Translations under genes and position numbers: made by a program | The notes under the pieces: generated by a model | The model's input: only the letters and a program-made list of their open reading frames with translations | The model's database searches: none | What the model was told of the DNA's origin: nothing | DNA from: Nostoc sp. PCC 7120 = FACHB-418 | GTDB lineage: Bacteria; Cyanobacteriota; Cyanobacteriia; Cyanobacteriales; Nostocaceae | DNA: 32,000 nucleotides | Assembly: GCF_000009705.1 (NCBI RefSeq) | Contig: NC_003272.1 | Location: 2,400,001-2,432,000 of the forward strand | Direction: 5' to 3' | Shown here: in pieces, positions 13,761 through 31,957 of the stretch | Layout: each line of letters begins with the position of its first letter | Position numbering within the stretch: the first letter of the stretch is position 1

Positions 13761-16619
13761 TCAAGCCATTTGTCGAGCCATCAACTGAGCAAAAATCCCT
13801 TCAGTATTTGCTAACTCTTGAAAAGTTCCCTGTTGTACTACCCGGCCTGCTTGTAATACATAGATGCGGTGAGCGTTGCGAATTGTGCTTAGTCGATGAG
13901 CGATCGCAATTCTGGTAACCTGTAATTTATCTAGACTTTCACTGACTATTGCTTGGGTTCTGTTGTCGAGGGCGCTGGTAGCTTCATCAAATAACAAAAT
14001 TCGGGGCTTTAATGCTAAGGCGCGAGCAATCAGCAATCGCTGTCTTTGTCCTCCAGACAGATTACCACCGCCTTCGCTGACTACCGTGTGCATTTGCATA
14101 GGCATGGCGGTAACATCTTCAGCAAAACCAGACATCCGCGCTGCTTCCCAGGCTTCATCTAGGGTAATCTGTGCGTCACCAGCGATATTCTCAAAAATGG
14201 AAGCTGAATTTAGCTGACCATTTTGTAACACAACACCTAACTGTCGCCTGACTGCATCCACATCTAAGCCGGAAAGGTCTTGACCATCGTAATGGATGCT
14301 GCCGGCTTGGGGTGTTTCAAATCCCAGTAGTAGCCGCAGCAGAGTTGATTTACCGCTTCCAGAACTACCTACTAGAGCAATAAATTCTCCTGGTTCAGCA
14401 GAGATACTGACATTATCCAGGGTTAAGTTGCCATCACGACGATAACAAAAAGTTACATTATCTACAGTAATTTTACCTGCCAGCCTGCCAGGGTCAGATT
14501 TGCTGAGATTCACTTCTGGTATGGTGGTTAAAATTGGCTGTGTGCGTTGCCACTGGGGAAGAATTTGTAAAATTTGGGTAACTGTATTGCTGAGGTTTGT
14601 GGTTCCTCTGGTGAAGTTGCTAAAGGCTGTGTTAAAGGCGAGAAAAGTCCCAAGGGAAAAGGCGATACTTCCGGAAGTTTGAGCTTCTTCTAAGAGCTTG
14701 GTGGTAAACCAGAATAGGACTCCAGAGGTAATGATGGGGATGATTGTATTGAAGATTACAACAAAATCTTCTACCAATTGGGTGCTGAGTTCTAGCTTGA
14801 TTTGTCGAGTGTAGTTTTTACTCCAAGCGGCGAAGGCGCGTTCTTCAGCCCCGGCAATATGCAGTTTAGAAATGCCGTTGATTAACTGTACTGTTTGCCC
14901 GAAAATATTACCCTGTACTTCTAACAGAGGTCGCACTTTTGATAATAGAAGGATACCAGAGATTGTCGTGATAGCGATCGCCACTACGGCACTAGCAACG
15001 GCAATCAGGGCTAATTTATAGTTGTAATAAAATAACTGTCCTAAGTAAAATAACGCAAATATACTAGTAATAAAATTAATCAGCGTTCTACCGCTAAGTT
15101 GACGACGGATAGCACTGACTGAGGAAATTCGTGAGAGTAAATCCCCTGTGGTGTACTCTCGGAAAAAAGAGACTGGCAAATTGAGTAATCTATCCCACAC
15201 ACCAGCTTGAGTAGAAGCATCACCAGAGGTTTCCATTCGCAGCAAGGCAAAACCTTGAGCCAGTTGAAATAAACCTGCACCTAAAGCTGCAACTAATAAC
15301 CCTAAGCCGATTTGTAATAATAAAGAGCGATCGCTATCGGGGATGGCATTATCTATAATTATTGAAGTGGCATAAGGTGTAATCATCCCCAACAGGGTAA
15401 TGAAAATACCAGTAAATAAAATTTGTAGTAAATCCCACCCGTGTCCTCGGAGGGTAAACTTGACTATATCAATAGCCCTGAGTGCTTTATCGGGTAAAGA
15501 GCGATAAAACATATAAGCCACAGGAGCTAATGTTGCAGCTACACCCTCGTTTACTACCACACGGCTATAGTTAACTGGGTCAAAAATTTCATAACGATTT
15601 CCAGCAGGTAACAGCGCCACTGGTTGATTCTCTTTAGTATAGGCGACTAAAGCACCTGCATCTTTCAGCCACCAATTATCCCGCAACAACACCCGGCGCA
15701 TTCGGATACGTGAAGCCCTGACTATCGCTTCTAATGGTTCCTTCACTCGCTGGAGATTTTCCGAACGCAATGGAGGGCTAATCTTGATACCCATAGCCCT
15801 ACCGACTGCACCAGCAGCCACTAATAAAGGAGTACCTTCTAAGAAAAAGTCACCGTCTTGAGAATTGAGGGTTGATGATAGTTCCCCTAAAGCTTCGGCT
15901 GTGACTCGACGATTCAGGCGTTGACGTTCTTGCAACCTTGTCAGTTCTGCTTGTGCTTCTTGCTCATCTAATAAAGTCACACAAGACAAGATTTGAGTAT
16001 GTAATTGAGATAAACCAGCCAGCAGTATATCTGAATTTTCGTATTCGCTAGTAGTATGAGTTGTTAGTTGCACTCCCCCGACTGGGGTTAACCACATTTT
16101 GTCATTCATGGGGAAGGCTACGTCTGTGGCTAAAATCAATTCCTCAAATCCCAGAAAACAAACATTCCCTTCCTGAAGCTGCACCCAGCAAGTTAAACCT
16201 GCGGCTGGTTGGAAATTTTGACCATTATTTAAGGAAAATCGTTCTTGTCCCTCAGTTTTTACCTGAATTTTGGGTGTGGGAATCTGGCACAATACACTAC
16301 TAAGTTCCATTAACCAATTTTCTATCCAAGCATTAGCTTTCGCTCCTAACCCGCGAAAACATTCTGGATGTAACAGCAGTAACTCAACTTCCCCAATAGG
16401 AACCGCGAGAATTTGGCGTTGCTGATAAACCGTGCCGAAAAGTGCCTCACCTTGGCTAATACTACATAAATAACGACGAGTTCCATCAATCACGCCATCT
16501 TTCACTGTGACTGCAAACAAAGCCATAGAACCAGATTGAACCACCCAAACCCGCGACGGGTCATTGAGTAAAATTGGTTCATTGCCATTAATTATGTAAG
16601 TTTGCCCCTGTAGTTTCAT
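13761..16619 (-). CDS. Bacteriocin-export ABC transporter (permease + ATPase) with an N-terminal cNMP-binding-like domain and a Cys-less C39-like segment; NHLP/Nif11 export subunit 2 type
   Basis: 952 aa. Walker A GSSGSGKST, signature LSGGQRQR, Walker B LLFDEATSALD, and a 6-TM exporter core. N-terminus VWVVQSGSMALFAV...GEALFG is beta-barrel-like. The architecture matches what I recall for TIGR03797-type proteins (needs an HMM check). Confidence 0.9.
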   Translation of the reverse strand: MKLQGQTYIINGNEPILLNDPSRVWVVQSGSMALFAVTVKDGVIDGTRRYLCSISQGEALFGTVYQQRQILAVPIGEVELLLLHPECFRGLGAKANAWIENWLMELSSVLCQIPTPKIQVKTEGQERFSLNNGQNFQPAAGLTCWVQLQEGNVCFLGFEELILATDVAFPMNDKMWLTPVGGVQLTTHTTSEYENSDILLAGLSQLHTQILSCVTLLDEQEAQAELTRLQERQRLNRRVTAEALGELSSTLNSQDGDFFLEGTPLLVAAGAVGRAMGIKISPPLRSENLQRVKEPLEAIVRASRIRMRRVLLRDNWWLKDAGALVAYTKENQPVALLPAGNRYEIFDPVNYSRVVVNEGVAATLAPVAYMFYRSLPDKALRAIDIVKFTLRGHGWDLLQILFTGIFITLLGMITPYATSIIIDNAIPDSDRSLLLQIGLGLLVAALGAGLFQLAQGFALLRMETSGDASTQAGVWDRLLNLPVSFFREYTTGDLLSRISSVSAIRRQLSGRTLINFITSIFALFYLGQLFYYNYKLALIAVASAVVAIAITTISGILLLSKVRPLLEVQGNIFGQTVQLINGISKLHIAGAEERAFAAWSKNYTRQIKLELSTQLVEDFVVIFNTIIPIITSGVLFWFTTKLLEEAQTSGSIAFSLGTFLAFNTAFSNFTRGTTNLSNTVTQILQILPQWQRTQPILTTIPEVNLSKSDPGRLAGKITVDNVTFCYRRDGNLTLDNVSISAEPGEFIALVGSSGSGKSTLLRLLLGFETPQAGSIHYDGQDLSGLDVDAVRRQLGVVLQNGQLNSASIFENIAGDAQITLDEAWEAARMSGFAEDVTAMPMQMHTVVSEGGGNLSGGQRQRLLIARALALKPRILLFDEATSALDNRTQAIVSESLDKLQVTRIAIAHRLSTIRNAHRIYVLQAGRVVQQGTFQELANTEGIFAQLMARQMA

Positions 16620-16699
16620 TTTGGCTATTTAGATTAGGTGATTGTTGTTGGTTGCTATAGCAATTCCTAAACAAGTGAGGTACGGAGTTATTTTTTTAA

Positions 16700-16740
16700 C
16701 GCAAAGGGGCGCGAAGGAAAGCGCAAAGGGGCGCGGAGGA
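16700..16740. repeat. Tandem 19-nt GC-rich direct repeat
   Basis: CGCAAAGGGGCGCGAAGGA (16700-16718) and CGCAAAGGGGCGCGGAGGA (16722-16740), 18/19 identical with period 22. It is preceded by TTAACG, like the 8851 element. Confidence 0.85.
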
Positions 16741-16784
16741 TTTTTACTTAGTACCTTAGTGGATTGGGAAATAGGGAAATAAAT

Positions 16785-16816
16785 TTTTGAATTTTGAATT
16801 TTGAATTTTGAATTGA
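16785..16816. repeat. Heptamer tandem repeat, about 4.5 units of TTTTGAA
   Basis: ttttgaa ttttgaa ttttgaa ttttgaa ttga read directly. It ends 2 nt before the stop codon of the C39-ABC gene. Confidence 0.9.
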
Positions 16817-16818
16817 TT

Positions 16819-19041
16819 TCATCCTTCCGTCCGAATCAAACGCGAATATGCACCCTCAACTTGCCAAAGTTCTTGGTGCGTACCTTGTTGTACTACTTTC
16901 CCCCGTTCCAGGACAATGATTTGGTCACAGTCGCGGATAGTGCTTAATCGGTGCGCCACGATAATACAGGTACATCCCCGACGGCGGAGATTTTGGTCAA
17001 TGATTTTTTCTGTTTCTGCGTCTAAGGCGCTGGTGGCTTCATCCATAACTAGGATAGAGGGATTATTTACCAACGCACGGGCAATTTCTAACCGTTGTCG
17101 TTGACCACCACTGAGATTAGCAGCACCTTCGATGAGTTCGGCATCATAACCTCCAGACATAGAGAAAATTACATCAGCGATCGCAGCATCTTGGCAAGCC
17201 CTCATGAGGTTTTTATCTGGTACAGTAGTATCCCAAAGGGTTAAATTGTCCCTCACCGTACCGCCAAACAGCAAAATTTCCTGCTCGACCATCGCCACAG
17301 AGTTAGTCAGTAGTTGGAGGGAAATCTCCTCTCTCGGTTGACTATCAAAGTAGATTTCCCCAGTCCAAGGTTGATACAGTCCGCTTACAAGTTTGGCAAT
17401 GGTAGACTTACCAGAACCGCTTCCCCCCACTAACGCCACACGCTGTCCTGGTTTAATTGACAGATTAAAGTTTTCAATTAAAGGCGCTTCCAAGCGGCTA
17501 TAACCAAAAGTGATATTTTTTAACTCCACATATCCTTGCAATTTAGGAAGCGCCTGGAGTGATGAAGACGATGTTTTACCCCCTACTTCCCCCACGGGGT
17601 TATCCAACACATCATCAAGACGAATCAAGTTTCCCTCTAATTCCTGGAGAGTCGTACCAAAGTTGACGAGATTGTTGACGGGTTGCTGAAAACCAGACAT
17701 TAAACCTTGAAAGGCGATGAGCATACCGATACTTAGATGTCCATCCATCACGCGGAAACCACCGACTATCAAGAGCAACATGGCGGAGAGAGCCGATAGC
17801 AGTGTGGGTAAAACTGAGAATGTCTGGTTTGTAATTCCTAGTTCCTGTTGGGAATTGAGCGCCTTGGTGTAATAACCAGACCATCGAGAAAAGAAATCAG
17901 ACTCTAACCCTGATGCTTTGAGTGTTTCTATACTTTGTAATGTAGCGATAGATATACCCGCCGCCTTCCCATATTCTTGAATTAATCGTTGATTAGCATC
18001 TATCCGTTGACGAGAAATCCATTGCAAAGTTAAGACGTTCACGGCGGCAAAACTGACCACCATCAAGGTAAGTACCCAGTCATACTGCACCATCACCAAA
18101 GCATAAAAAAGCACCATCAATGTGTCAATGATGGTTGTTGCTAACTGTCCAGCCAGAACATCGGCTACTTGGTCATTTAGGGTAGTGCGATTACTGATTT
18201 CCCCAGCAAATCTTTGAGCATAAAAGCTCACTGGTAGGCGGAGAATATGCCAGAGGAAACGGCTAGACATACCCACAGCTAGTCTAATTTTGAGTCGGCG
18301 TAGGTAGCGTAGTCGTAGTAATGTGAGTGATCCTTGCAGTATAGCAGCGATCGCCATTGCCAAAAGTAGAGGGTGCAGCCATAACATTCGTCCCTGCACC
18401 AAGATATCATCGACAAATATTTGACTAAATACGGGGATTACCAACCCAATAATCGTCAAGAAAAATCCTGCCACGATGCAGTAAACTAAAGCACTCTCAG
18501 CCCCCTGTAACCGTGACCACAAAGATGCAATCATGCTGGGTTTGCGACCACCTTTTTGGAACTCTGCGCCTGGTTCCATCACCAGTACTATTCCGGTATA
18601 TCCCTCGTCAAATTCTTGTAACGATACATGACGCGGCCCCGTAGCGGGGTCATTGATATAAACCTGATGTTTACCAAATCCCTCTACCACAACAAAATGG
18701 TTAAAGTTCCAAAAGACAATATAAGGAGGGCGTAATTGTTGTACTTGCTTCAGTTCTTTTTTAAAACCTTTAGCTTCTAGTCCATAAGTTCTGGCAGCTT
18801 TCACCATATTAGATGCCTTGCTGCCATCGCGGGAAACTCCGCAGTCTCGCCGCAGTTGTGGCAATGGTACAACTCGACCGTAGTAACCAAGAATAATTCC
18901 CAAAGCAGCCGCACCACATTCTACCGCTTCCATTTGTAGCAGCGTGGGCGTTTTCACTCGCAGCCTTCTAGGTGGTAGTATTTTTTTTACATACTGCCAA
19001 GGATTAACCAGTGTTACTACGGTAGATTTAGTAGATACCAC
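16819..19041 (-). CDS. Peptidase-C39-domain ABC transporter (double-glycine leader cleavage and export); NHLP/Nif11 export subunit 1 type
   Basis: 740 aa. C39 residues are in context: LLQMEAVECGAAALG (Gln/Cys), NFNHFVVV (His), INDPA (Asp). Walker A GGSGSGKST, LSGGQRQR, ILVMDEATSALD. The GTG start at 19041 overlaps the HlyD stop by 14 nt; the next Met would delete the catalytic Cys. Confidence 0.92.
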   Translation of the reverse strand: MVSTKSTVVTLVNPWQYVKKILPPRRLRVKTPTLLQMEAVECGAAALGIILGYYGRVVPLPQLRRDCGVSRDGSKASNMVKAARTYGLEAKGFKKELKQVQQLRPPYIVFWNFNHFVVVEGFGKHQVYINDPATGPRHVSLQEFDEGYTGIVLVMEPGAEFQKGGRKPSMIASLWSRLQGAESALVYCIVAGFFLTIIGLVIPVFSQIFVDDILVQGRMLWLHPLLLAMAIAAILQGSLTLLRLRYLRRLKIRLAVGMSSRFLWHILRLPVSFYAQRFAGEISNRTTLNDQVADVLAGQLATTIIDTLMVLFYALVMVQYDWVLTLMVVSFAAVNVLTLQWISRQRIDANQRLIQEYGKAAGISIATLQSIETLKASGLESDFFSRWSGYYTKALNSQQELGITNQTFSVLPTLLSALSAMLLLIVGGFRVMDGHLSIGMLIAFQGLMSGFQQPVNNLVNFGTTLQELEGNLIRLDDVLDNPVGEVGGKTSSSSLQALPKLQGYVELKNITFGYSRLEAPLIENFNLSIKPGQRVALVGGSGSGKSTIAKLVSGLYQPWTGEIYFDSQPREEISLQLLTNSVAMVEQEILLFGGTVRDNLTLWDTTVPDKNLMRACQDAAIADVIFSMSGGYDAELIEGAANLSGGQRQRLEIARALVNNPSILVMDEATSALDAETEKIIDQNLRRRGCTCIIVAHRLSTIRDCDQIIVLERGKVVQQGTHQELWQVEGAYSRLIRTEG

Positions 19042-20527
19042 TGGCAGACCTCAAGATTGGTAAAACAAAGGTGATGGGAGCGCGTTCTTCTACCTTGACC
19101 CGCACAACGGTAGTAGTTCCAGAAGAAATATTCAGGTGCGGCCCCGTGGAAGAAGACCACTTGTAACCGCTTGGTGTGTTGGCATCTAATTCTAAGTGAG
19201 AGAATACTTGTATTAATCCTTGCTGTTGAGATACTAAACCTTCCAGCACCTCAGAATTACCGACTTCATTAGCAGCCGCTTCCTTGGTAATCGGGAAGCG
19301 AGAAATGCTGGTGACATTACCCACAATCCCCCCAAAGCGTTCCCGCTTCACCGTTTGGGGAGTAATTTGGATAGACATCCCTGGCTGAATTTTCTTACCC
19401 TCCGCCACAGGAAAATAGGTAACACCAACCAACTTACTCTGGGGATTTTCCGCCTCTATGGTAGCTAACCGTGTACCTGCGTTAACAACTTGCCCTGGTG
19501 TCAAGGTAATTTCTAAAATGCGTCCGCTATGTTGACTAATAATCTGGCTATTATCACTCAGTTGCAGTTCTAGAGAGCCAATCTCTCGCTTCACCTCTTG
19601 AATTTCTTTATTTCTCGCCGTGACATTTTCTAAATCTTGTTGAGCCACGGAAGCCTGTTGACTATCTAATTGTTTCAACTGTGACTGCAAGTCAGCCACA
19701 AGTGTCAAATTTTCCCGATAATCTTTTTCTTGTTGAGTCTCTTTGACATCAAGTTCTTTTAATTGTGCTTGAATATCAGCAATCTTTTCTAAGTTTTGCA
19801 GATATTCCTGTTCTGCTTTGAGGGCTTCATCACCGGAAATCGCCCCTTCTTTTTGAAATAATTCTTGGCGAATTTTCATCCTCCGTAGAAACACAGCAGT
19901 CAGAGCTTGAGCTTGCTGGAGACGTTGCTGTAAGCCTTGACGTTGCTGATCAACAGAGGTGTTACCTTTGGTTTTGAGTAAAGGTGTAATAGCTTCCAAT
20001 TCCAGTATACGCTGCCGGAGGTACTGACGCTGTTGTTGCTGCGATCGCTCCTCTTGTTCCAACCTCCGCCCTTGTAGTGAGCCAACAGCTTTATCTTGCG
20101 ATTCCAGTTGTGTTAGTTTCCCTCGCTGTTGTTGCAGTTGCTTACGCAGTTCAGCTTGGTCAATTGTCGCCAACACCTGCCCTTTTTTAATCACATCCCC
20201 CACTTTCACATTCAACGCCATGATTTGCCCGGCACTTTTGGATTGTAGGGGTACAACATTGCTAGGGTAAATCAATACACCCCGACCCTCAACGGTGATG
20301 GGAATGCTACCATAAATACTCCAGATAAAAGCAACTCCCACAATAGAACCCAACGCCACAAGAGGTAGCCAGCTTTTAGGACTGACTACCTGCATCAGTT
20401 GGTCTAATCTTTCAGGAGAAGATAGACGCTCTAAGGATTCTTTGCGGAATATACTGCCTTTTTTTGTAGCATTAGTTTGGTAACAAAACCTTCTCACTAG
20501 ATTTACTATTGTGGCGACGGAACTCAT
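19028..20527 (-). CDS. HlyD-family membrane fusion/secretion protein
   Basis: N-terminal FRKESLERLSSPERLDQLM + TM (WLPLVALGSIVGVAFIW), lipoyl-like GQIMALNVKVGDVIKKGQVLATID, a long Gln-rich coiled coil, and C-terminal GRILEITLTPGQVVNAGTRLATIE. The first ATG is at 20527 (the track starts at a TTG at 20536). It overlaps the 3' end of the upstream rSAM gene by about 56 nt. Confidence 0.9.
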   Translation of the reverse strand: MSSVATIVNLVRRFCYQTNATKKGSIFRKESLERLSSPERLDQLMQVVSPKSWLPLVALGSIVGVAFIWSIYGSIPITVEGRGVLIYPSNVVPLQSKSAGQIMALNVKVGDVIKKGQVLATIDQAELRKQLQQQRGKLTQLESQDKAVGSLQGRRLEQEERSQQQQRQYLRQRILELEAITPLLKTKGNTSVDQQRQGLQQRLQQAQALTAVFLRRMKIRQELFQKEGAISGDEALKAEQEYLQNLEKIADIQAQLKELDVKETQQEKDYRENLTLVADLQSQLKQLDSQQASVAQQDLENVTARNKEIQEVKREIGSLELQLSDNSQIISQHSGRILEITLTPGQVVNAGTRLATIEAENPQSKLVGVTYFPVAEGKKIQPGMSIQITPQTVKRERFGGIVGNVTSISRFPITKEAAANEVGNSEVLEGLVSQQQGLIQVFSHLELDANTPSGYKWSSSTGPHLNISSGTTTVVRVKVEERAPITFVLPILRSASGIY

Positions 20528-22502: not shown

Positions 22503-22577
22503 GATTTTATTTATATAATTTTCGTTTATGCCGTGGAAAATAGGAATTTGTATTTTATTAATTTAAAACACTAGTTA

Positions 22578-22607
22578 TCTAGCCTAAAATCTTATTTTTA
22601 GGCTAGA
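22578..22607 (-). terminator. 12-bp perfect stem-loop immediately 3' of the NHLP-1 precursor gene (attenuator/processing hairpin candidate)
   Basis: 22578-22589 pairs with 22596-22607 (tctagcctaaaa / ttttaggctaga) with a 6-nt loop. It lies 9 nt downstream of the precursor stop and ahead of the rSAM gene. The U-run follows only after about 9 nt, so it is not a textbook terminator. Confidence 0.4.
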
Positions 22608-22615
22608 CATTTAAC

Positions 22616-22909
22616 TTAAAACTTAACTTTAACCGTAACTGAAACTTCGCCACTAATTCTACCACCTGCTACTGACTCTAGCTCTGCTTCAGATAATGTA
22701 TCTTGCTCAGAATTTGGTAACGCCTGCAAAGATAAATTTCCTGGAGTAGTTTCCACCAAATTAACATCAATACTGGATGGAAGATTAATTCCCTCTTTTT
22801 CCAGAGTAGACCGAGGATTAGATACTAAAGCCTGCTTAAAAGACTCATCTTGCCCAGCTTTTACTATAATTTTTTCTTCGAGTTCTTTCCATGTCATTAC
22901 TAGACTCAT
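22616..22909 (-). CDS. NHLP-leader RiPP precursor 1; predicted core RISGEVSVTVKVKF
   Basis: 97 aa. The nitrile-hydratase-like leader pattern WKELEEKIIVKAGQDESFKQALVSNPRSTLEKEGINLP...LSEAELESVAGG ends in a double glycine. AAGGAG Shine-Dalgarno sequence upstream of the ATG at 22909. The core is 22619-22660. Confidence 0.9.
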   Translation of the reverse strand: MSLVMTWKELEEKIIVKAGQDESFKQALVSNPRSTLEKEGINLPSSIDVNLVETTPGNLSLQALPNSEQDTLSEAELESVAGGRISGEVSVTVKVKF

Positions 22910-26561: not shown

Positions 26562-26714
26562 TTATTTAGGACTTGGAAAAAAGAATTTATAGATTTCGGC
26601 ACCAAAATCTTTTCCCTGATCATAAAGCATTGCTCCATTTAAAATAACAACAATCACAAAAATGCTTATGATTACGAATTTAATAATAACTTTAGGATCA
26701 TTTAAATTTTGCAT
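26562..26714 (-). CDS. Unannotated 50-aa single-pass membrane ORF; candidate immunity/accessory peptide
   Basis: Below the track's size cutoff. I translated it codon by codon: MQNLNDPKVIIKFVIISIFVIVVILNGAMLYDQGKDFGAEIYKFFFPSPK, with a TAA stop at 26562-26564. It has one hydrophobic helix, and its tail resembles the core of precursor 2. It sits between precursor 2 and lanM on the same strand. Confidence 0.45.
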   Translation of the reverse strand: MQNLNDPKVIIKFVIISIFVIVVILNGAMLYDQGKDFGAEIYKFFFPSPK

Positions 26715-26759
26715 AATAATTTAATGTATTATCCATCGTCCATGATGAGTTTTTTTGCT

Positions 26760-26783
26760 GGTGTAAGAAAAAACTCCTACACC
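26760..26783 (-). other. Weak stem-loop 3' of the NHLP-2 precursor
   Basis: GGTGTAAG (26760-26767) / CCTACACC (26776-26783), 7 of 8 bp, with an 8-nt loop. No U-tract follows on the sense strand. Confidence 0.25.
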
Positions 26784-26848
26784 AACTTGATTTACAGCGA
26801 AGTGTGATTTTTAGAACAATCTATGATCACAGTGTTTTCTGGAGAAAA

Positions 26849-26924
26849 GCTTTGTGTATTTCTTTACCAAAACCTTTTAATCTACAATGGCTTTATATAT
26901 TTCTTTGCCAAAGTCTTTTAATCT
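26849..26924. repeat. Tandem 35-nt direct duplication (period 41) spanning the 3' end of the NHLP-2 core
   Basis: 26849-26883 versus 26890-26924: 30/35 identical by my position-by-position comparison. Copy 1 encodes RLKDFGKEIYKA in frame. Copy 2 is out of frame and contains the gene's TAA stop (26877-26879). Confidence 0.85.
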
Positions 26925-27227
26925 ATCATAAGTTTTCTCAACAAAAGTGAATATATCTCCAAGACTTCCACCGGCAACCGCTTCTAACTGCTCTTCAGAT
27001 AACTCTACATCTTCTAAATTGGGACGTGCAGGAATTACGAAGTAGAAATTGGAATCATTCTCTTCCACTACATGAACATTTATTTCTTCTGGTAATTGAA
27101 TAGCAAATTCTCTTTCAATTACAGCTTTAGAGTTGTTTAATAACTCTTGCCTGTAGGTTTCGTCTTTCCAGGCTTGAACAATTATTTGTGCTTCAATTTC
27201 TTTACGAGTCTTTGTTTGTTCGCTCAT
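26877..27227 (-). CDS. NHLP-leader RiPP precursor 2; predicted core SLGDIFTFVEKTYDRLKDFGKEIYKAIVD
   Basis: 116 aa. The leader RKEIEAQIIVQAWKDETYRQELLNNSKAVIEREFAIQLPEEINVHVVEEN..FVIPARPN..LSEEQLEAVAGG is a near-consensus NHLP leader. The core is 26880-26966. Confidence 0.92.
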   Translation of the reverse strand: MSEQTKTRKEIEAQIIVQAWKDETYRQELLNNSKAVIEREFAIQLPEEINVHVVEENDSNFYFVIPARPNLEDVELSEEQLEAVAGGSLGDIFTFVEKTYDRLKDFGKEIYKAIVD

Positions 27228-27384: not shown

Positions 27385-27720
27385 TTATTTTCTAGAATTA
27401 TGTTCTTCAAGAGCGCCATGAGCGATAGGAATTAAAAGGAGCGTAAGTGTCCATAACGCTCCACCAGCAACGGCTTCTAGCTGCTCATCTGATAATTCTA
27501 CATCTTCTAAGTTAGGGCGTGCAGGAATTACAAAATAGAGGTTAGAAGCATTTTCTTCCATGACGTGAACTGTTATTCCCTCTGGTAATTGAACACCAAA
27601 TTCTTGTTCAACTATTTTTTTAGGATTGTTCAGTAATTCCTGTCTGTAAGCTTCATCTTTCCATGCTTGCACAATGATTTGTGCTTCAACATCTTTACGA
27701 GTTTTAGTTTGCTCACTCAT
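27385..27720 (-). CDS. NHLP-leader RiPP precursor 3; predicted core ALWTLTLLLIPIAHGALEEHNSRK
   Basis: 111 aa. The leader is 71/87 identical to that of precursor 2. AGGAGA Shine-Dalgarno sequence upstream. The core is 27388-27459. Confidence 0.92.
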   Translation of the reverse strand: MSEQTKTRKDVEAQIIVQAWKDEAYRQELLNNPKKIVEQEFGVQLPEGITVHVMEENASNLYFVIPARPNLEDVELSDEQLEAVAGGALWTLTLLLIPIAHGALEEHNSRK

Positions 27721-27853: not shown

Positions 27854-28042
27854 TTAATGATTTGTTTTTTGCCAAATAATAGCAGTCAATTCTGCTATAT
27901 CTAAAGCCTGTTTAGCCTTAATTACTTCTCTCAAAAAAGCTCGTTCATCTTCCCAAGCAAACCGAGGTAGGAGAGGTTGAGAAACTAACAGTTCTTCAGA
28001 GGAAATGTTTGCGTCCTGATTTTCTTCGTTTAAATGATTCAT
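27854..28042 (-). CDS. 62-aa acidic/helical hypothetical protein translationally coupled to the rSAM/SPASM gene (possible accessory subunit)
   Basis: Its ATG (28042-28040) overlaps the TGA of the upstream rSAM gene (28041-28039) as ATGA. MNHLNEENQDANISSEELLVSQPLLPRFAWEDERAFLREVIKAKQALDIAELTAIIWQKTNH. No recognisable motif. Confidence 0.5.
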   Translation of the reverse strand: MNHLNEENQDANISSEELLVSQPLLPRFAWEDERAFLREVIKAKQALDIAELTAIIWQKTNH

Positions 28043-29301
28043 CTTGCTACAGAATAAAAAAGTTCAGATTTACTTTGCCAACTATCCGGCCATTGGATGG
28101 AGTCAGCCGTAAAGTGGAGTGGATCATTTTCTATCCAGGGTGCATCAAGTGGTTCTTCAATGATGGTAAATTCGCCATTATCGAAGGGAACTCCTGGGGC
28201 TGACACTTTTGGATAAACTCGCTCTCGTAAGCCACGCTTTGCTAATTCTAGGGCGCGATGGTGGCAGTAAGGATTGTTACCCCGACGATTGAAGAATACG
28301 TGTGCTGTCCAAGTGCAACCCCCGCGACACAATTCGGCAAATTTACAAGTCTTGCAGAATCCCCACAAGTACGCTGTTCCTTCGGGTGTACCAGCATAGA
28401 GATTGAACTGCAATTCTTCGGATTGTTCTACAATTTCCCTTAGTGGACGTTCTCGGATATTGCCACCTGCATAAGCGGTTGTTGGTAGGGAAGGGCAGCC
28501 TTTAATTGTGCCGTCCGCCTCTAAACCTAAAGTTGATAGCCCAGCACCGCAACCCCGCCAAAATCCCCACTCTTTACCTTGTCCCCGCAGCAACCGTTCA
28601 TAAGGCCCGTAGTAACCGATGTTGTTACCAGCAGCAACTCTTACCCCTTCGGTGTTAGCTCGTTGAGCAACACGAGCCAGCATAGGATATAAGTCTAATA
28701 GCTCAGAGGGTTGGAGAAGGATATCTGCATTGTCGGCGGCATTTCCCATTGGCACAGTTAGTTGAATTTGCCATGCTCGCGCGCCTGCATCGCGGATATG
28801 CTCATAAATACTAGGAAATTCAGGGGCAGACAGACGGTTGATTTGGGTATTACAGCCGAAGAGAATGCCAACTTCTTTAAGGTAGCTCATGGTTCTTAAG
28901 CCAGACTTCCAAGAGCCTTTTCGTCCCCGTAAATGATCATGGGTTGCTTCCATGCCATCGGTAGAAACAGAAACTTTTGCAATTCCTGCTTCTTTCATAC
29001 GCTGTGCCATTTCCAAAGAGATGCCATAACCCCCCGTAGTCATGCCGCAGAGCATACCAGCATCGGTAATAGCTTTCGCAATTACTAACCAGTCTGGACG
29101 TAGAAAAGCCTCTCCGCCAATGAGAGTTACTTCTTTAATTCCCACCTCAGCTAATTGCTGAACAAGGTTAAGAGCTTCTGCTGTCGAGAGTTCTTGATGC
29201 CTTGCCTGTCCTGCCCGTGAACCACAATGACTACAAGCAAGATTGCATTTCAATGTGATTTCCCAAACGGCATAACTGGTTCGATGGTGTTTTTCAGACA
29301 T
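28039..29301 (-). CDS. Radical SAM/SPASM-domain RiPP maturase (splicease-like or epimerase-like; chemistry unresolved)
   Basis: CNLACSHCGS (C-x3-C-x2-C) lies near the N-terminus. C-terminal Cys-rich SPASM-type region GCGAGL...GCPSLP...WGFCKTCKFAELCRGGCTWTAHV...YCHH. The track start at 29340 is a TTG; I prefer the ATG at 29301 (MSEKHHRTSYAVWEITLK). Confidence 0.9.
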   Translation of the reverse strand: MSEKHHRTSYAVWEITLKCNLACSHCGSRAGQARHQELSTAEALNLVQQLAEVGIKEVTLIGGEAFLRPDWLVIAKAITDAGMLCGMTTGGYGISLEMAQRMKEAGIAKVSVSTDGMEATHDHLRGRKGSWKSGLRTMSYLKEVGILFGCNTQINRLSAPEFPSIYEHIRDAGARAWQIQLTVPMGNAADNADILLQPSELLDLYPMLARVAQRANTEGVRVAAGNNIGYYGPYERLLRGQGKEWGFWRGCGAGLSTLGLEADGTIKGCPSLPTTAYAGGNIRERPLREIVEQSEELQFNLYAGTPEGTAYLWGFCKTCKFAELCRGGCTWTAHVFFNRRGNNPYCHHRALELAKRGLRERVYPKVSAPGVPFDNGEFTIIEEPLDAPWIENDPLHFTADSIQWPDSWQSKSELFYSVAR

Positions 29302-29378: not shown

Positions 29379-29405
29379 TATAATTACGGCGATGACGTTT
29401 GATAG

Positions 29406-29729
29406 CTATGAAAGATAATCGCGTGGATCAAGTGGATCAAGAATTACACCGTACAGAGCAACTACACCAGGGAAGATACCTTTGATCCAATGAATAGTTT
29501 TTGTTCCACCAGCGATCGCTGCTAATTCCGCTTCGTTAAGTTCCTCATCAGGGGAACTAGTTTCTAAAATCTCAGCAGTAGCAGTTTCCCATTCTTCTTC
29601 TGTGAAATTATATCCTGTTCCTTGTAAGAAACTTATACGTTCTTCGCTGGAATAACTTTCAATTTGAGTGCGGAAAGTTGGATCTGTTGTGATTCTCTGA
29701 TAAAAAGCTTTTGCGCTTTCAATAGACAT
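29406..29729 (-). CDS. Nif11-leader RiPP precursor; predicted core TKTIHWIKGIFPGVVALYGVILDPLDPRDYLS
   Basis: From the ATG at 29729 (AAGAGG Shine-Dalgarno sequence upstream): MSIESAKAFYQRITTDPTFRTQIES...GYNFTEEEW...ELNEAELAAIAGG, a Nif11-type leader with a double glycine. The core is 29409-29504. The Tyr-Gly codons are at 29448-29453. Confidence 0.88.
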   Translation of the reverse strand: MSIESAKAFYQRITTDPTFRTQIESYSSEERISFLQGTGYNFTEEEWETATAEILETSSPDEELNEAELAAIAGGTKTIHWIKGIFPGVVALYGVILDPLDPRDYLS

Positions 29730-29841
29730 ACAAATACCTCTTATGAATAACAAAAACATTAAAAGAAATAAACTAATAGAACAATGCAGAATTTTTGGAT
29801 AAGACTCTGTTTTTTTTCGTTAGATATTTATTAGGAAAAAT

Positions 29842-30936
29842 TTAACTTACTTTTAATCTTCCCAACATCCAATCAAATCTTTTACCAGCGATCGCCATCC
29901 TATCTAAAGTGTTAATATCTAATTCATCGTCATACTCTAGCCCTTCACGTAAAGATTGACCCCGGCTATAAACTCGCCTACCATAACCAAGCTGACTCAC
30001 CATTGCTTGCGATCGCTGGGACAGTAAAGACGCAATTACTCGGTAAAATCTTGATGCAAATCCCACATCTTGTTGTAACTTTGCGGCTAGTTGCTGTCGG
30101 GGAATTGCTAAGACTACAGAATTTTCAATTGCCTTAACAGTTGCAGGGGGTAAACTACCATCTATAAAGGGTGTTTCGCCGATGATTTCACCTTTAGATA
30201 ATTTGGCTATTTCTCTACCAGGAATTTCATGACCCTCAATAGCTGCAAAAGCACGCGCTAAAGGATTCTGTTCATCTGGGGAAATAGACAAGGACATTTT
30301 TCCATAGAGGAGAATATACAGTGCGTCTACAGTTCCTTGTTCATGGATGAGTATGGTATTAGCTGGGATTTTTTGGGGAGTACCAGAAGCCATCATCCAA
30401 TCTATGTCACTATCGTGTAATTCTCCCAGGATAAACAGCACATCTCGTAGATGTTGACTTTGTGCTAGGTTACGACGACCAAGTTGATGGATGGTATTTT
30501 GTATTCTATCGGAAATAATGATGGCGATCGCTCGATAAAAATGCGCCGCAAAACCCACATCTTGCTGTAATTTCGCCGCTAATTCTCCAACCGGAATTGA
30601 CATCACCAGGGACTTTTCCACAGCTTTAATCGTAGTAGCTGGTGGACGTGTCCCAATTAAGGGACTTTCTCCCATTATCTCACCCCTAGATAATCTCCCA
30701 ATCTCCTTACCGAAGATTTCGTTCCCCTCAATAGCTGCAAAAGCACGAGTTAGGGGATTATCTTCTGGTTGCGGGATAGTAACGCTGAATGTACCATCTA
30801 ATAAAATATGTAAAAAATCAGCAGCTTTTCCTGGTTGAATAAGTGTAGTACCAGCCGCTATTTCTCTTTGATGACCTATCGCAACCATCCAGTCAATATC
30901 ACTTTTAGTTAGTTCTTTGAGTAAAACTTCTGTCAT
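29842..30936 (-). CDS. Tandem cyclic-nucleotide-binding-like domain protein (bacteriocin transport-associated type)
   Basis: There are two internally homologous halves (SDIDWMVAIG...RGEIMGESPLIGTRPPATTIKAVE...LQQDVGFAAHFYR and SDIDWMMASG...KGEIIGETPFIDGSLPPATVKAIE...LQQDVGFASRFYR). I prefer the ATG at 30936 (MTEVLLKEL); the track start at 30948 is a TTG. Confidence 0.85.
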   Translation of the reverse strand: MTEVLLKELTKSDIDWMVAIGHQREIAAGTTLIQPGKAADFLHILLDGTFSVTIPQPEDNPLTRAFAAIEGNEIFGKEIGRLSRGEIMGESPLIGTRPPATTIKAVEKSLVMSIPVGELAAKLQQDVGFAAHFYRAIAIIISDRIQNTIHQLGRRNLAQSQHLRDVLFILGELHDSDIDWMMASGTPQKIPANTILIHEQGTVDALYILLYGKMSLSISPDEQNPLARAFAAIEGHEIPGREIAKLSKGEIIGETPFIDGSLPPATVKAIENSVVLAIPRQQLAAKLQQDVGFASRFYRVIASLLSQRSQAMVSQLGYGRRVYSRGQSLREGLEYDDELDINTLDRMAIAGKRFDWMLGRLKVS

Positions 30937-30973
30937 AACTAAGACCAATTATTTATCTACGTTGATACAAAAT

Positions 30974-31957
30974 CTATGACGCTGGTGTAAGTCCCAAGCA
31001 ATTACTCTGTAATCTGTCTAAAGTGTTCTGGATGAAAAAGTGTGCTTCTTGGGTAGCCAATTCTTCTAATGTCAAATATGTCAAAGTGATTAACATTAGG
31101 ATTTGCATATTAGTATCTGTTAGCTTTTGGGCGTATTGAGCATGGAAACGCTGTAAGTTTTCGGCGGCGGCTTTTACCAATGCTTGTAAAATTACAAAAG
31201 CTCCATCAGAAAGTGGCGGTTTACCGCGATAGTTTTGCAGTCTACCTCCTTCTCGATATTGAGGAAATGATTCTAAGCCTAAAAATCGTAAGAACCAGTT
31301 TGCTTGGTAATAACCAGTAGCAGCAATAATGCCTCTATAGTCGGCAATTAATTCGTCAAATATATTATTTCGCATAGAGTTAAATAGACGATATGTTAAA
31401 TAGTGAGTACATTCATGTTCTAGACGAATTGTGAGTGACAATTTTTGCCATTGTGATGCTTTTAGTCCTATTTCTTCGGCTGAAATATTGCTATATGGGA
31501 TATTACTTAAAATAATAAATGTATCTTGATAGAGATGTTTCTGTAGGATTAATCGTTGAAACTCTGTATTCCAATTAGAGGCAAAATGCTCTACTTCCCA
31601 TTTTTGGCGATATTGACGAATCCTGTCCCAATTGTTGAACCCACGAACTATACAAGCTCCCATTGATTGAGGAATAGGTTGGGGTTCGTTATGCTTTGTT
31701 AAGGCTTGCACTAGAGACACAAAATCTTCTCTGTTTTCAGTTAGTAATACGGGGATTGTTCCCGCCAAACTTTGATGGAGGATTAATTGGAGTTTTTGGG
31801 GTTGCTGTAAGACTAAACCAGATGCTTCTAACATCCCATTTGTTGATACACCCTTACGAGTGGCTTTTCTATAGGCTTCTGTCTGAGAGATCCCTTTTTG
31901 GATGGGAAATTGTAACTGTACTAACTTCTGTTTGAGTACTGCAAATGCGCCTATCAT
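30974..31957 (-). CDS. Hypothetical protein with an HExxH motif (LEHECTHY); first gene of the co-directional cluster within the window
   Basis: 327-aa ATG-initiated ORF that is mostly helical. The only recognisable feature is HECTH followed 20 residues later by DELIADY. It lies 25 nt upstream of the cNMP-like gene on the same strand. Confidence 0.7.
   Translation of the reverse strand: MIGAFAVLKQKLVQLQFPIQKGISQTEAYRKATRKGVSTNGMLEASGLVLQQPQKLQLILHQSLAGTIPVLLTENREDFVSLVQALTKHNEPQPIPQSMGACIVRGFNNWDRIRQYRQKWEVEHFASNWNTEFQRLILQKHLYQDTFIILSNIPYSNISAEEIGLKASQWQKLSLTIRLEHECTHYLTYRLFNSMRNNIFDELIADYRGIIAATGYYQANWFLRFLGLESFPQYREGGRLQNYRGKPPLSDGAFVILQALVKAAAENLQRFHAQYAQKLTDTNMQILMLITLTYLTLEELATQEAHFFIQNTLDRLQSNCLGLTPAS

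What the first reader, a model, noticed from the sequence alone, without database searches (positions are those of the whole stretch)
13761..31957. Hybrid NHLP/Nif11 RiPP cluster combining three unrelated maturase classes with a complete dedicated exporter
At least 13 co-directional minus-strand genes have tight spacing or overlaps: ATGA at 28039-28042, a 14-nt overlap at 19028-19041, and about 56 nt at 20472-20527. In order they are an HExxH protein, a tandem cNMP-like protein, a Nif11 precursor, rSAM/SPASM + a 62-aa ORF, two NHLP precursors, a 50-aa TM ORF, LanM, a third NHLP precursor, a B12-type rSAM, HlyD, a C39-ABC and a cNMP-ABC. Each part belongs to families known from NHLP/Nif11 systems (prochlorosins, proteusins, spliceotides). 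However, a lanthipeptide synthetase, a cobalamin-type rSAM and a SPASM rSAM grouped around four short Cys-free cores does not match any characterised pathway I can name. The products cannot be predicted from existing rules.
Basis: partly seen in the sequence, partly recalled or inferred. Interest (0 to 1): 0.8.

Follow-up and report, generated by a model that had tools for sequence, protein, structure and literature searches.

The report
Three-module RiPP locus of Anabaena 7120
This is the long-catalogued all2020–all2032 peptide-antibiotic-type gene cluster of the model cyanobacterium Anabaena/Nostoc sp. PCC 7120, and it is best read as three separate "precursor plus enzyme" modules (tyramine-splicing, LanM dehydration, B12 radical-SAM methylation) sharing one exporter, each with a characterised precedent but none with an isolated product.

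Summary
Fourteen co-directional minus-strand genes sit at the stated coordinates, and HMMs confirm every family call except the "cNMP" label on the second ABC protein. All four cores lack Cys. The DUF7005/HExxH gene is cut by the window edge.

The window is Nostoc/Anabaena sp. PCC 7120. Haft et al. 2010 used this same locus as a founding NHLP/LanM example and already noted the Cys-free cores, so the locus is not new.

- **Splicing module:** Nif11 precursor + TIGR04103 rSAM/SPASM + overlapping 62-aa ORF has the ternary A/X/Y architecture of type I spliceotides. YG is the only invariant core motif in 8 of 8 precursors next to X.
- **LanM module:** NHLP1–NHLP2–orf50–LanM is a conserved four-gene unit, also found in Scytonema UIC 10036. 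The LanM is fully intact and ProcM-like (CCG). The likely products are dehydrated linear peptides.
- **Methylation module:** NHLP3 + PoyC-like B12 rSAM (Cx7Cx2C) predicts C-methylation.

In seven related loci the modules recombine independently around a conserved exporter/regulator chassis. This favours co-located modules over one integrated hybrid pathway. No product has been characterised. Interest is moderate: this is a genetically tractable host in which to find a native spliceotide.

The parts
30974..32000 (-). DUF7005 protein with an HExxH motif (EHECTH). By gene numbering probably all2032. Its 5' end lies beyond the window.
   Evidence: Pfam PF22541, E = 2e-154, matching profile positions 56-360 only. 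The ORF is still open at the window end. 72% identical orthologues sit next to the cNMP protein or exporter in L008/L009 and next to the X-Y modules in L002 and L005.
29842..30948 (-). Bacteriocin-type transport-associated protein with two cNMP-binding domains (probably all2031).
   Evidence: TIGR03896, 528.7 bits vs cut-off 161. Pfam cNMP_binding twice. A 73% identical orthologue lies next to DUF7005 and upstream of the exporter in L008.
29406..29729 (-). Nif11-leader precursor all2030. Core after AGG is TKTIHWIKGIFPGVVALYGVILDPLDPRDYLS, with the predicted splice site LYG at 29448-29456.
   Evidence: TIGR03798, 88.9 bits. The exact protein is BAB73729, all2030. Y and G are the only invariant core columns in 8 precursors adjacent to X. 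Coordinates.
28039..29301 (-). Radical SAM/SPASM maturase, the predicted tyramine splicease 'X' (probably all2029; annotated 'heme biosynthesis protein' in older records).
   Evidence: TIGR04103 equivalog, 889.7 bits vs 725. CX3CX2C at residues 32-39 plus 7 SPASM cysteines. 75-86% identical homologues occur across cyanobacteria.
27854..28042 (-). 62-aa 'Y' protein asl2028, the predicted splicease partner. It overlaps the X stop by 4 nt (ATGA).
   Evidence: Small ORF directly downstream of X in 5 other loci, with a conserved P.LPR..W....A.....K.K..LD.AE block. Its position and size match the PlpY description. No Pfam or NCBIfam hit.
28040..28339 (-). Published 'asl2028 promoter' fragment inside the 3' end of X. 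The stretch 28271-28339 is required for activity.
   Evidence: Primers from Flaherty et al. 2014 mapped onto the window. The gfp fusion was active in vegetative cells, off in heterocysts and weaker in a hetR mutant; the truncated fragment was inactive.
27385..27720 (-). NHLP precursor all2027 (NHLP1). Core ALWTLTLLLIPIAHGALEEHNSRK; hydrophobic, no Cys.
   Evidence: TIGR03793, 113.4 bits. An orthologous core, VTWTVTIIAIPIIHGFIEEHNRQNP, occurs in Scytonema UIC 10036.
26877..27227 (-). NHLP precursor all2026 (NHLP2). Core SLGDIFTFVEKTYDRLKDFGKEIYKAIVD; amphipathic helix, no Cys.
   Evidence: TIGR03793, 102.7 bits. The orthologous core in Scytonema UIC 10036 is 20/29 identical. Helical hydrophobic moment 1.69.
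26757..26786 (-). 13-bp stem-loop after NHLP2, a likely transcript-stabilising or attenuating hairpin.
   Evidence: Fold of the intergenic region, -40.1 kcal/mol for 162 nt; coordinates. A different hairpin sits at the same position in Scytonema L010.
26562..26714 (-). orf50, a conserved small membrane protein. Its C-terminus (GKDFGAEIYKFF) resembles the C-terminus of the NHLP2 core. It is a candidate immunity or partner peptide.
   Evidence: TM segment at residues 9-27, KD 2.8. A 46% identical 53-aa orthologue lies in the same position in Scytonema UIC 10036. Only 2 families were found among 1.84 billion representatives.
23195..26488 (-). Class II lanthipeptide synthetase LanM (probably all2025), ProcM-like.
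   Evidence: TIGR03897, 1014 bits; DUF4135 + LANC_like. All CylM catalytic residues align (D/H P-loop, K, DxHxxN, D, R/T), and the Zn ligands are WCSG-966 and CCG-1012.
22616..22909 (-). NHLP precursor asl2024 (NHLP3). Core RISGEVSVTVKVKF; amphipathic beta-strand pattern with four Val and one Ile.
   Evidence: TIGR03793, 100.8 bits. Its leader is only 40-46% identical to every other NHLP leader compared. Strand moment 2.22.
22576..22609 (-). 14-bp stem-loop directly after NHLP3, terminator- or attenuator-like.
20472..22502 (-). Class B (cobalamin) radical SAM RiPP C-methyltransferase (BAB73722, probably all2023).
   Evidence: TIGR03975, 869 bits vs 282; B12-binding + Radical_SAM. It has a Cx7Cx2C motif at residue 279, like PoyC.
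19028..20527 (-). HlyD-type periplasmic adaptor of the NHLP export cassette.
   Evidence: TIGR03794, 584 bits vs 156. 68% identical orthologue in L008.
16819..19041 (-). C39 peptidase/permease/ATPase that cleaves the leader after GG and exports the peptide.
   Evidence: TIGR03796, 1213.8 bits vs 853; Peptidase_C39, E = 9e-36. The catalytic Cys motif ECGAA (Cys42) and the HFVVV...DP His motif are present.
13761..16619 (-). Second ABC permease/ATPase of the cassette, with an unassigned ~260-380 residue N-terminal extension.
   Evidence: TIGR03797, 1051.7 bits vs 709, covering residues 262-951 only. The N-terminus has no Pfam hit.

Best explanation
The region is the all2020-all2032 RiPP locus of Nostoc/Anabaena sp. 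PCC 7120. It is most likely three precursor-plus-maturase modules placed side by side on one shared export and regulatory chassis.

**Module 1, type I spliceotide.** The Y protein (asl2028) activates the radical SAM/SPASM enzyme X. X excises a tyramine equivalent from the Tyr of the single LYG motif in the Nif11 precursor all2030. This leaves an alpha-keto-beta-leucine residue, a protease-inhibitor-type warhead.

**Module 2, LanM unit.** The intact, ProcM-like LanM phosphorylates and dehydrates conserved Thr/Ser residues of the two co-conserved Cys-free NHLP cores all2027 and all2026. The products would be Dhb/Dha-containing linear peptides, possibly a hydrophobic plus amphipathic two-peptide pair. 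The conserved small membrane protein orf50, whose C-terminus mimics the all2026 core, would be the partner or immunity factor.

**Module 3, proteusin-type.** The PoyC-like cobalamin rSAM C-methylates unactivated carbons in asl2024, probably the Val/Ile beta-carbons.

**Export.** All four precursors carry a GG site. The C39-ABC protein cleaves them, and ABC1/ABC2/HlyD export them. The tandem cNMP protein and DUF7005 are conserved chassis accessories.

**Shown versus inferred.** Shown: gene content, family membership, catalytic motifs, conservation and shuffling of modules, and a published promoter active in vegetative cells. Inferred: every chemical step and the pairing of each enzyme with its substrate.
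For: - **Identity of the locus:** exact protein matches to BAB73722-BAB73729, including all2030. Haft 2010 lists the same NHLP, transporter and LanM genes.
- **Module 1:** TIGR04103 equivalog hit. rSAM plus 7-Cys SPASM motifs. Y overlaps the X stop and is conserved downstream of X in 5 other loci. YG is invariant in 8/8 Nif11 cores adjacent to X, with M, L or V before it. The core GVVALYGVIL resembles the PlpA3 splice tag AVAA(M/G)YGVVFP, and PlpXY acts on MYG and LYG sites. The architecture matches published type I A/X/Y systems.
- **Module 2:** all LanM catalytic and Zn-ligand residues are conserved, with the ProcM-type CCG. NHLP1, NHLP2, orf50 and LanM are conserved in the same order in Scytonema UIC 10036, with cores 50-69% identical, which is as conserved as the leaders. 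The closest LanM (66%, Nostoc FACHB-888) also serves five Cys-free NHLP cores and sits next to a Zn-ADH, like the characterised NpnJ system.
- **Module 3:** TIGR03975 hit and the Cx7Cx2C motif described as unique to PoyC. The gene lies next to a Val-rich core. Polytheonamide and nostatin A are precedents.
- **Modularity:** X-Y with LanM but without B12 in L002, L005 and L010. B12 with X but without LanM in L007 and L011. LanM, B12 and the chassis without X in L008/L009. The NHLP1/2 leaders cluster with leaders from the same LanM clade (61-68%), while the NHLP3 leader is an outlier.
- **Expression:** the asl2028 promoter-gfp fusion is active in vegetative cells.
Against: - No product or enzyme activity from this locus has been measured.
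- I could not compare X and Y directly with the PlpX and PlpY sequences. The link between TIGR04103 and PlpX rests on architecture, the motif and my recollection.
- LanM keeps a complete cyclase Zn site although no local core has Cys. This is unexplained if it only dehydrates.
- The NHLP3 leader shows no special affinity to B12-adjacent leaders elsewhere, so pairing asl2024 with the B12 rSAM rests on adjacency and composition only.
- X modules recur next to LanM or B12 modules in six other genomes, which could mean functional coupling rather than mere co-location.
- The triple combination itself was seen only in PCC 7120-type strains.
Confidence: 0.65

Rival explanations
1. One integrated hybrid pathway. 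The three maturases act combinatorially on the same precursors, for example all2030 is spliced, dehydrated and C-methylated, giving peptides that carry several modification classes at once.
For: - All genes are co-directional and tightly spaced.
- NHLP and Nif11 leaders are related families that share the GG-proximal motif.
- ProcM-type CCG LanMs are promiscuous and naturally use Nif11-type leaders.
- Characterised proteusins combine a LanM-like dehydratase with class-B rSAM methylation on one peptide.
- X modules recur beside LanM or B12 modules in six other loci.
- Every core has Ser/Thr and hydrophobic residues.
Against: - Each maturase sits next to its own precursor type.
- YG occurs only in the Nif11 core.
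- The modules are found in different pairings and orders in relatives, and the LanM four-gene unit is conserved without the B12 rSAM.
- One spliceotide core next to a LanM (Scytonema, LRFIYPWPPEKFPPVQPLYGAPLDLL) has no Ser or Thr at all.
- The NHLP3 leader is divergent.
Confidence: 0.17
2. LanM does not modify the local NHLP peptides. all2027 and all2026 would be exported essentially unmodified, as a class-II-like two-peptide bacteriocin with orf50 as immunity protein. LanM would serve Cys-containing precursors encoded elsewhere in the genome, as ProcM does.
For: - The cores lack Cys although the LanM cyclase site is intact.
- The all2026 core is a strongly amphipathic helix and the all2027 core is hydrophobic.
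- A small TM protein lies next to them, as in class IIb bacteriocin loci. The class IIb comparison rests on my own knowledge.
- ProcM-type enzymes are known to act on dispersed precursors.
Against: - The same cores stay linked to LanM in Scytonema UIC 10036 at 58% LanM identity.
- Thr positions are conserved (WTxT, FTF, KTY).
- The nearest LanM clade is again paired with Cys-free NHLP cores plus a LanJ-like reductase.
- The NHLP1/2 leaders co-vary with that LanM clade.
- I could not scan the rest of the PCC 7120 genome for Cys-containing precursors.
Confidence: 0.13
3. Unrelated neighbouring operons that are adjacent by chance, with no shared function.
For: An internal promoter lies inside X. 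There are hairpins after NHLP2 and NHLP3 and a 285-nt gap between LanM and NHLP3. These show more than one transcription unit.
Against: - All four precursors need the GG-cleaving C39 exporter, and the cluster has only one.
- The same families co-cluster in seven other loci from at least four genera.
- The DUF7005/cNMP/exporter chassis is 68-79% conserved in L008.
Confidence: 0.05

Closest known systems
Type I spliceotide systems PlpA/PlpX/PlpY and PcpA/X/Y of Pleurocapsa spp. (Morinaka et al. 2018)
   Same: Nif11-type precursor with a GG site and a single XYG motif (here LYG). rSAM/SPASM enzyme. Small hypothetical ORF directly downstream of the enzyme. The core around YG resembles the PlpA3 splice tag.
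   Different: No activity has been shown here. The module is embedded between a cNMP/DUF7005 chassis and a LanM module. The dCache-HAMP sensor that follows Y in four relatives is absent from the window. Identity to PlpX itself could not be measured.
Cys-free LanM systems of Nostoc punctiforme (NpnA/NpnM/NpnJ; Yang & van der Donk 2015, as summarised) and ProcM/prochlorosins
   Same: Cyanobacterial LanM with NHLP/Nif11-type leaders. CCG (three-Cys) zinc site as in ProcM. Cores without Cys that can only be dehydrated. Several precursors per enzyme.
   Different: The window has no LanJ-type reductase, whereas the closest LanM clade in Nostoc FACHB-888 has one. The cores are conserved rather than hypervariable. 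A conserved small membrane protein that mimics a core C-terminus accompanies them.
Proteusins: polytheonamide (PoyA, PoyB/C, PoyF) and nostatin A (NstA, NstG)
   Same: NHLP leader. Class-B cobalamin rSAM C-methyltransferase with the PoyC-type Cx7Cx2C motif. A LanM-type dehydratase in the same cluster.
   Different: The 14-residue core is very short. The window contains no PoyD-type epimerase, N-methyltransferase or cyclodehydratase. The dehydratase is a full-length LanM rather than a dehydratase-only protein.
The NHLP/Nif11 'microcin' export cassette defined by Haft, Basu & Mitchell 2010 (TIGR03794/03796/03797, with TIGR03896)
   Same: This is literally one of the loci from which the cassette and the NHLP family were defined.
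   Different: The 2010 text I could read names neither the rSAM genes, the Y gene nor orf50. Their assignment here is new only in the sense of applying later knowledge.

Membership tests
Type I spliceotide (A/X/Y tyramine-splicing RiPP) | Radical SAM enzyme with a CX3CX2C cluster site and a SPASM auxiliary-cluster domain | tested here: met
   C32-x3-C36-x2-C39 plus C264, C282, C329-x2-C332-x5-C338-x3-C342 and C359. Pfam Radical_SAM + SPASM. TIGR04103, 889.7 bits vs 725.
Type I spliceotide (A/X/Y tyramine-splicing RiPP) | Small 'Y' protein encoded directly downstream of X and required for activity | tested here: met
   The presence and position are met: a 62-aa ORF overlaps the X stop (ATGA) and is conserved downstream of X in L002, L005, L007 (two copies), L010 and L011. 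Whether it is required for activity was not testable.
Type I spliceotide (A/X/Y tyramine-splicing RiPP) | Precursor with a leader, a GG site and an XYG motif in the core | tested here: met
   The all2030 core contains one LYG. Y and G are invariant in 8/8 Nif11 cores adjacent to X.
Type I spliceotide (A/X/Y tyramine-splicing RiPP) | Orthology of X to the characterised PlpX/PcpX | not testable with these tools
Homologues from Pleurocapsales-type MAGs are 75% identical.
Type I spliceotide (A/X/Y tyramine-splicing RiPP) | [quoted passage not shown] | not testable with these tools
   This needs co-expression and HR-MS/MS.
Class II lanthipeptide | LanM with an active dehydratase (kinase-like) domain and a LanC-like cyclase domain | tested here: met
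   TIGR03897 hit. Residues aligning with CylM D252/H254, K274, D347/H349/N352, D364 and R506/T512 are all conserved. Zn ligands are C967 and C1012/C1013.
Class II lanthipeptide | Core peptide with Ser/Thr and Cys so that (methyl)lanthionine rings can form | tested here: not met
   None of the four cores has Cys. The local products therefore cannot be lanthipeptides in the strict sense.
LanM/LanJ linear D-amino-acid peptides (NpnA-type) | Dehydroalanine/dehydrobutyrine reductase (LanJ) in the cluster | tested here: not met
   The window has no ADH- or flavin-type reductase. One is present beside the closest LanM in L005, and another in L007.
Proteusin (NHLP-leader RiPP with rSAM tailoring) | Nitrile-hydratase-like leader peptide | tested here: met
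   Three precursors hit TIGR03793 at 101-113 bits vs cut-off 50.9.
Proteusin (NHLP-leader RiPP with rSAM tailoring) | PoyB/C-type cobalamin rSAM C-methyltransferase | tested here: met
   TIGR03975, 869 bits. B12-binding + Radical_SAM domains. Cx7Cx2C motif as reported for PoyC.
Proteusin (NHLP-leader RiPP with rSAM tailoring) | PoyD-type rSAM epimerase (typical of proteusins but not universal) | tested here: not met
   The window contains only two rSAM genes, and neither matches an epimerase family.
NHLP bacteriocin export cassette | HlyD adaptor + C39-peptidase ABC + second ABC, all at equivalog level | tested here: met
   TIGR03794, TIGR03796 and TIGR03797 all score above their cut-offs. The C39 Cys and His motifs are present. 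The cluster encodes no outer-membrane channel.

The most novel reading that the evidence does not exclude
The recurrent side-by-side placement of splicease, LanM and B12-rSAM modules reflects real cross-talk. At least one PCC 7120 peptide would then carry two or three chemically unrelated modification classes: a ketoamide splice, dehydro-residues and C-methyls. Alternatively, the fully intact ProcM-type cyclase domain, kept together with strictly Cys-free conserved cores, catalyses an addition other than Cys-to-Dhb. Candidates are a His or Lys nucleophile in the IPIxHG/EEHN core, or a small-molecule thiol. In this reading orf50 would be a core-mimicking immunity protein.
Probability: 0.12. Interest if true: 0.75.

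Novelty: new member of a known kind. Interest (0 to 1): 0.38.

Why it matters
Reviews state that no native spliceotide has been isolated from a producer and that the biological role of spliceotides is unknown. This locus puts a complete type I splicease module in Anabaena PCC 7120, a genetically tractable model organism. A published promoter inside the module is active in vegetative cells and silent in heterocysts. Knock-out plus LC-MS experiments for the native peptides are therefore practical.

The conserved NHLP1–NHLP2–orf50–LanM unit raises a specific question: why is a complete lanthionine cyclase kept with conserved Cys-free cores? The comparative data also show how cyanobacterial RiPP modules are swapped around a constant exporter/regulator chassis. 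This matters for how genome-mining tools draw cluster borders.

It is not a new class of system.

Tried and rejected
- **DUF7005 structure.** AlphaFold2 on a single sequence gave mean pLDDT 33.5. The model is unusable, so I ran no fold search.
- **Direct X/Y comparison with PlpX/PlpY.** The Science 2018 and Chem 2022 papers are not held. The Chem Sci paper has no supplement held. 'TIGR04103' and its family name appear in no paper.
- **Canonical HetR site.** No GAGGGGN5CCCCTC or GGGN5CCC site lies near asl2028. The ChIP peak itself is taken from the paper only.
- **cNMP domain in ABC2.** Pfam at E <= 10 and BLASTP against all2031 were both negative.
- **PDB.** Sequence search gave only generic SPASM enzymes for X and nothing for the B12 rSAM.
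- **Rfam.** No RNA family was found in the window, so no cobalamin riboswitch.
- **Leader affinity.** I tested whether the NHLP3 leader groups with B12-adjacent leaders elsewhere. It does not.
- **orf50 as a decayed precursor copy.** DNA alignment shows no leader remnant. Its conservation in Scytonema argues that it is a real gene.
- **40-aa TTG ORF at 23011-23133.** No hits; treated as spurious.
- **Genome-collection scan with LanM.** It returned only relatives at 48% identity or less. The organism was identified by exact protein look-up instead.

Full report
**1. Observation**

ORF listing and translation show fourteen minus-strand genes between 13761 and the window end.

| Gene product | Family | Bits (cut-off) |
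|---|---|---|
| ABC2 | TIGR03797 | 1051.7 (709) |
| C39-ABC | TIGR03796 | 1213.8 (853) |
| HlyD | TIGR03794 | 584 (156) |
| B12 rSAM | TIGR03975 | 869 (282) |
| LanM | TIGR03897 | 1014 (304) |
| Three NHLP precursors | TIGR03793 | 101–113 (50.9) |
| Nif11 precursor | TIGR03798 | 88.9 (32) |
| rSAM/SPASM | TIGR04103 | 889.7 (725) |
| Tandem cNMP protein | TIGR03896 | 528.7 (161) |
| HExxH protein | Pfam DUF7005 | E = 2e-154 |

The overlaps are as described: ATGA at 28039–28042, 14 nt at 19028–19041, and 56–65 nt at the B12/HlyD junction depending on the HlyD start. None of the four cores contains Cys.

Three corrections apply.
- The N-terminal extension of ABC2 has no detectable cNMP domain.
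- The DUF7005 ORF is still open at the window edge, and its Pfam match begins at profile position 56. The gene, and possibly the cluster, therefore continues beyond position 32000.
- X and the Nif11 precursor most likely start at internal ATGs, giving 420 aa and 107 aa, as in public annotations.

**2. Identity of the locus**

Exact-sequence look-up places the window in Nostoc/Anabaena sp. PCC 7120 and its near-identical strains. The proteins match BAB73722–BAB73729, and the Nif11 precursor is all2030. dnaA and dnaN lie about 8 kb away in the same window.

The literature already knows this locus.
- Haft, Basu & Mitchell 2010 list its three NHLPs and three transporter genes in their phylogenetic-profiling table.
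- They show the cluster in their Fig. 2 and note that it contains a LanM. [quoted passage not shown]
- Wang et al. 2011 put all LanM-encoding cyanobacterial clusters in their group IV. I could not see where they place this particular locus.
- A 2025 biofilm study mentions Asl2024, All2026 and All2027 as GG-motif proteins.

None of the papers I could search characterises a product.

**3. The splicease module**

Published type I spliceotide systems consist of three parts. There is a Nif11-type precursor with an XYG motif and a radical SAM enzyme X. A small, previously unannotated protein Y is encoded directly downstream of X and is required for activity. [quoted passage not shown]

The window matches this anatomy.
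- X has the CX3CX2C site plus the seven-Cys SPASM pattern.
- The 62-aa ORF overlaps the X stop codon.
- The Nif11 core contains one LYG.

In five further loci the same small ORF follows X, with a conserved P.LPR..W....A.....K.K..LD.AE block. In an alignment of eight Nif11 precursors adjacent to X from five genomes, Y and G are the only invariant core residues, preceded by L, M or V.

[quoted passage not shown] I could not obtain the PlpX or PlpY sequences. Orthology is therefore inferred from architecture, the motif and family membership, not from a direct comparison.

**4. The LanM module**

LanM aligns over its full length with LicM2 and CylM. It retains every residue shown by mutagenesis to matter in CylM: the D/H P-loop pair, the Lys, DxHxxN, the Mg-binding Asp, and the Arg/Thr elimination pair. 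It also keeps the cyclase His and the zinc ligands. The third ligand forms a CCG motif, the published hallmark of ProcM-like enzymes.

The most informative relative is Scytonema sp. UIC 10036 (LanM 58% identical). It has two NHLP genes, a 53-aa gene and LanM in the same order. Its cores are clear orthologues:

| PCC 7120 | Scytonema UIC 10036 |
|---|---|
| ALWTLTLLLIPIAHGALEEHNSRK | VTWTVTIIAIPIIHGFIEEHNRQNP |
| SLGDIFTFVEKTYDRLKDFGKEIYKAIVD | ASVGDVFTFVEKTYAELKDFGAEIYRAIF |

The 53-aa protein is an orthologue of orf50 (46% identity). The Cys-free cores are thus conserved about as well as their leaders, with conserved Thr positions.

orf50 is a real gene but a rare one: only two families were found among 1.84 billion representatives. 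It has a single TM helix and a C-terminal GK..GAEIYK motif that echoes the C-terminus of the NHLP2 core.

The closest LanM of all (66%, Nostoc FACHB-888) is flanked by five Cys-free NHLP precursors and a zinc-ADH. This is the arrangement of the characterised N. punctiforme NpnA/NpnJ system, which makes linear D-amino-acid peptides. PCC 7120 has no such reductase in the window.

My best reading is dehydration without ring formation. The products may form a two-peptide pair, one hydrophobic and one amphipathic (helical moment 1.69), with orf50 as immunity or partner protein. Why the cyclase site is kept remains unexplained.

**5. The B12 rSAM module**

The enzyme is a TIGR03975 member with a B12-binding domain. 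It carries the Cx7Cx2C motif that a review describes as unique to PoyC, the valine C-beta-methyltransferase of polytheonamide biosynthesis.

The gene follows the precursor asl2024. Its 14-residue core RISGEVSVTVKVKF has four Val and one Ile in an alternating, strand-like pattern. Nostatin A provides a cyanobacterial precedent for an NHLP precursor, a LanM-like dehydratase and a class-B rSAM methylase in one cluster.

The pairing of asl2024 with this enzyme is inferred from adjacency. The asl2024 leader is an outlier, 40–46% identical to every NHLP leader compared, and it does not group with B12-adjacent leaders elsewhere.

**6. One pathway or three modules?**

Seven related loci were examined.

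| Locus | Gene order |
|---|---|
| Brasilonema UFV-L1 (L002) | NHLP (Cys core) – LanM – three Nif11 – X – Y – sensor – ParA – DUF7005 |
| Nostoc FACHB-888 (L005) | DUF7005 – ParA – Nif11-fused dCache sensor – Y – X – Nif11, divergent from five NHLP – ADH – LanM |
| Scytonema UIC 10036 (L010) | sensor – Y – X – two Nif11, divergent from NHLP – NHLP – 53 aa – LanM |
| Metagenomic contig (L008/L009) | two Cys-containing NHLP – LanM – SbmA-like ABC – Nif11 – sensor – 871 aa – ParA – DUF7005 – cNMP – truncated B12 rSAM – HlyD – ABC1 – ABC2; no X |
| Scytonema NUACC26 (L007) | B12 rSAM with NHLPs and X–Y copies; no LanM |
| Metagenomic contig (L011) | B12 rSAM with NHLPs and X–Y; no LanM |
| Pleurocapsa PCC 7319 (L006) | LanM with Cys-containing NHLPs and the exporter |

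In L008/L009 the chassis proteins are 68–79% identical to those of PCC 7120.

The families clearly attract each other, so chance adjacency is excluded. They recombine as units, however, and each maturase travels with its own precursor type. That pattern, plus the internal promoter and the post-precursor hairpins, favours co-located modules sharing export and regulation over an obligatorily integrated pathway. Cross-talk is not excluded, and I give it about 0.17.

**7. Regulation**

Flaherty et al. 2014 reported a HetR ChIP-seq peak between all2027 and asl2028. They also tested an 'asl2028 promoter'–gfp fusion. It is expressed in vegetative cells, switched off in heterocysts and weaker in a hetR mutant.

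Mapping their primers shows that the active fragment is window 28040–28339, inside the 3' end of X. Activity needs 28271–28339. I found no canonical HetR inverted repeat there.

**8. Verdict**

The locus is real and composite, and no product is known. It has, however, been catalogued since 2010. Each module belongs to a characterised kind, and most of its chemistry can be predicted.

What remains interesting:
- a complete splicease module in a tractable model organism, when native spliceotides have never been isolated;
- the conserved Cys-free NHLP1/NHLP2/orf50/LanM unit with an intact cyclase;
- the modular shuffling around a constant chassis.

I score interest at 0.38 and novelty as "new member of a known kind".

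Noticed in passing
window 26827-26877: Directly after the NHLP2 (all2026) stop codon there is an out-of-frame second copy of the core C-terminus: LKGFGKEIHKAF versus LKDFGKEIYKAI, a 23-nt near-repeat of 26889-26918. It is absent from the orthologous Scytonema locus, so it looks like a recent local duplication scar.
   Followed up: partly
window 26562-26714 and L010 9801-9962: The C-terminus of orf50 (GKDFGAEIYKFF) mimics the C-terminus of the neighbouring NHLP2 core. The family has only two clusters among 1.84 billion protein representatives.
   Followed up: yes
L005 1421-3130; L008 616-897 + 904-2325; L002 13456-14982; L010 3366-4784; L011 15056-16474: In relatives a dCache-HAMP sensor protein follows the Y gene. 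In Nostoc FACHB-888 it is fused to an N-terminal Nif11 leader with an AIAGG cleavage-type motif. In the L008 contig a separate Nif11 peptide gene sits 7 nt upstream of the sensor. This could be a peptide-sensing regulatory unit. It is not present in this window.
   Followed up: no
window 28040-28339: The published 'asl2028 promoter' fragment (Flaherty et al. 2014) lies inside the coding region of the splicease gene X. That paper treated asl2028 as a hypothetical gene next to 'nitrile hydratases' and a 'heme biosynthesis protein', without recognising it as part of a RiPP cluster.
   Followed up: partly
window 13761-16619 (ABC2 residues 1-380): The TIGR03797-type ABC protein has a long N-terminal extension with no recognisable domain at sequence level. 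Its function is unknown.
   Followed up: partly
window 16620-16818: The 199-nt gap between the two ABC genes holds short tandem repeats: TTTTGAA x4.3 at 16785-16814 and CGCAAAGGGG x3.3 at 16700-16734.
   Followed up: no
window 3018-5975: dnaA (3018-4397, +) and dnaN (4812-5975, +) lie about 8 kb from the RiPP locus, so the cluster is close to the dnaA-dnaN region of the chromosome.
   Followed up: no
L009 2920-3267: A Cys-containing NHLP core in the metagenomic relative (TWTVTIPLTVSAIKTLIGGIQKCLS) shares the N-terminal WTVT motif with the Cys-free NHLP1-type cores. This hints that the Cys-free cores descend from a conventional lanthipeptide core.
   Followed up: no
L008 10001-11392: The B12 rSAM orthologue in the closest chassis relative is truncated: 463 aa, aligning to residues 1-416 only. 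It may be a decaying copy, which would show that the module is dispensable there.
   Followed up: no
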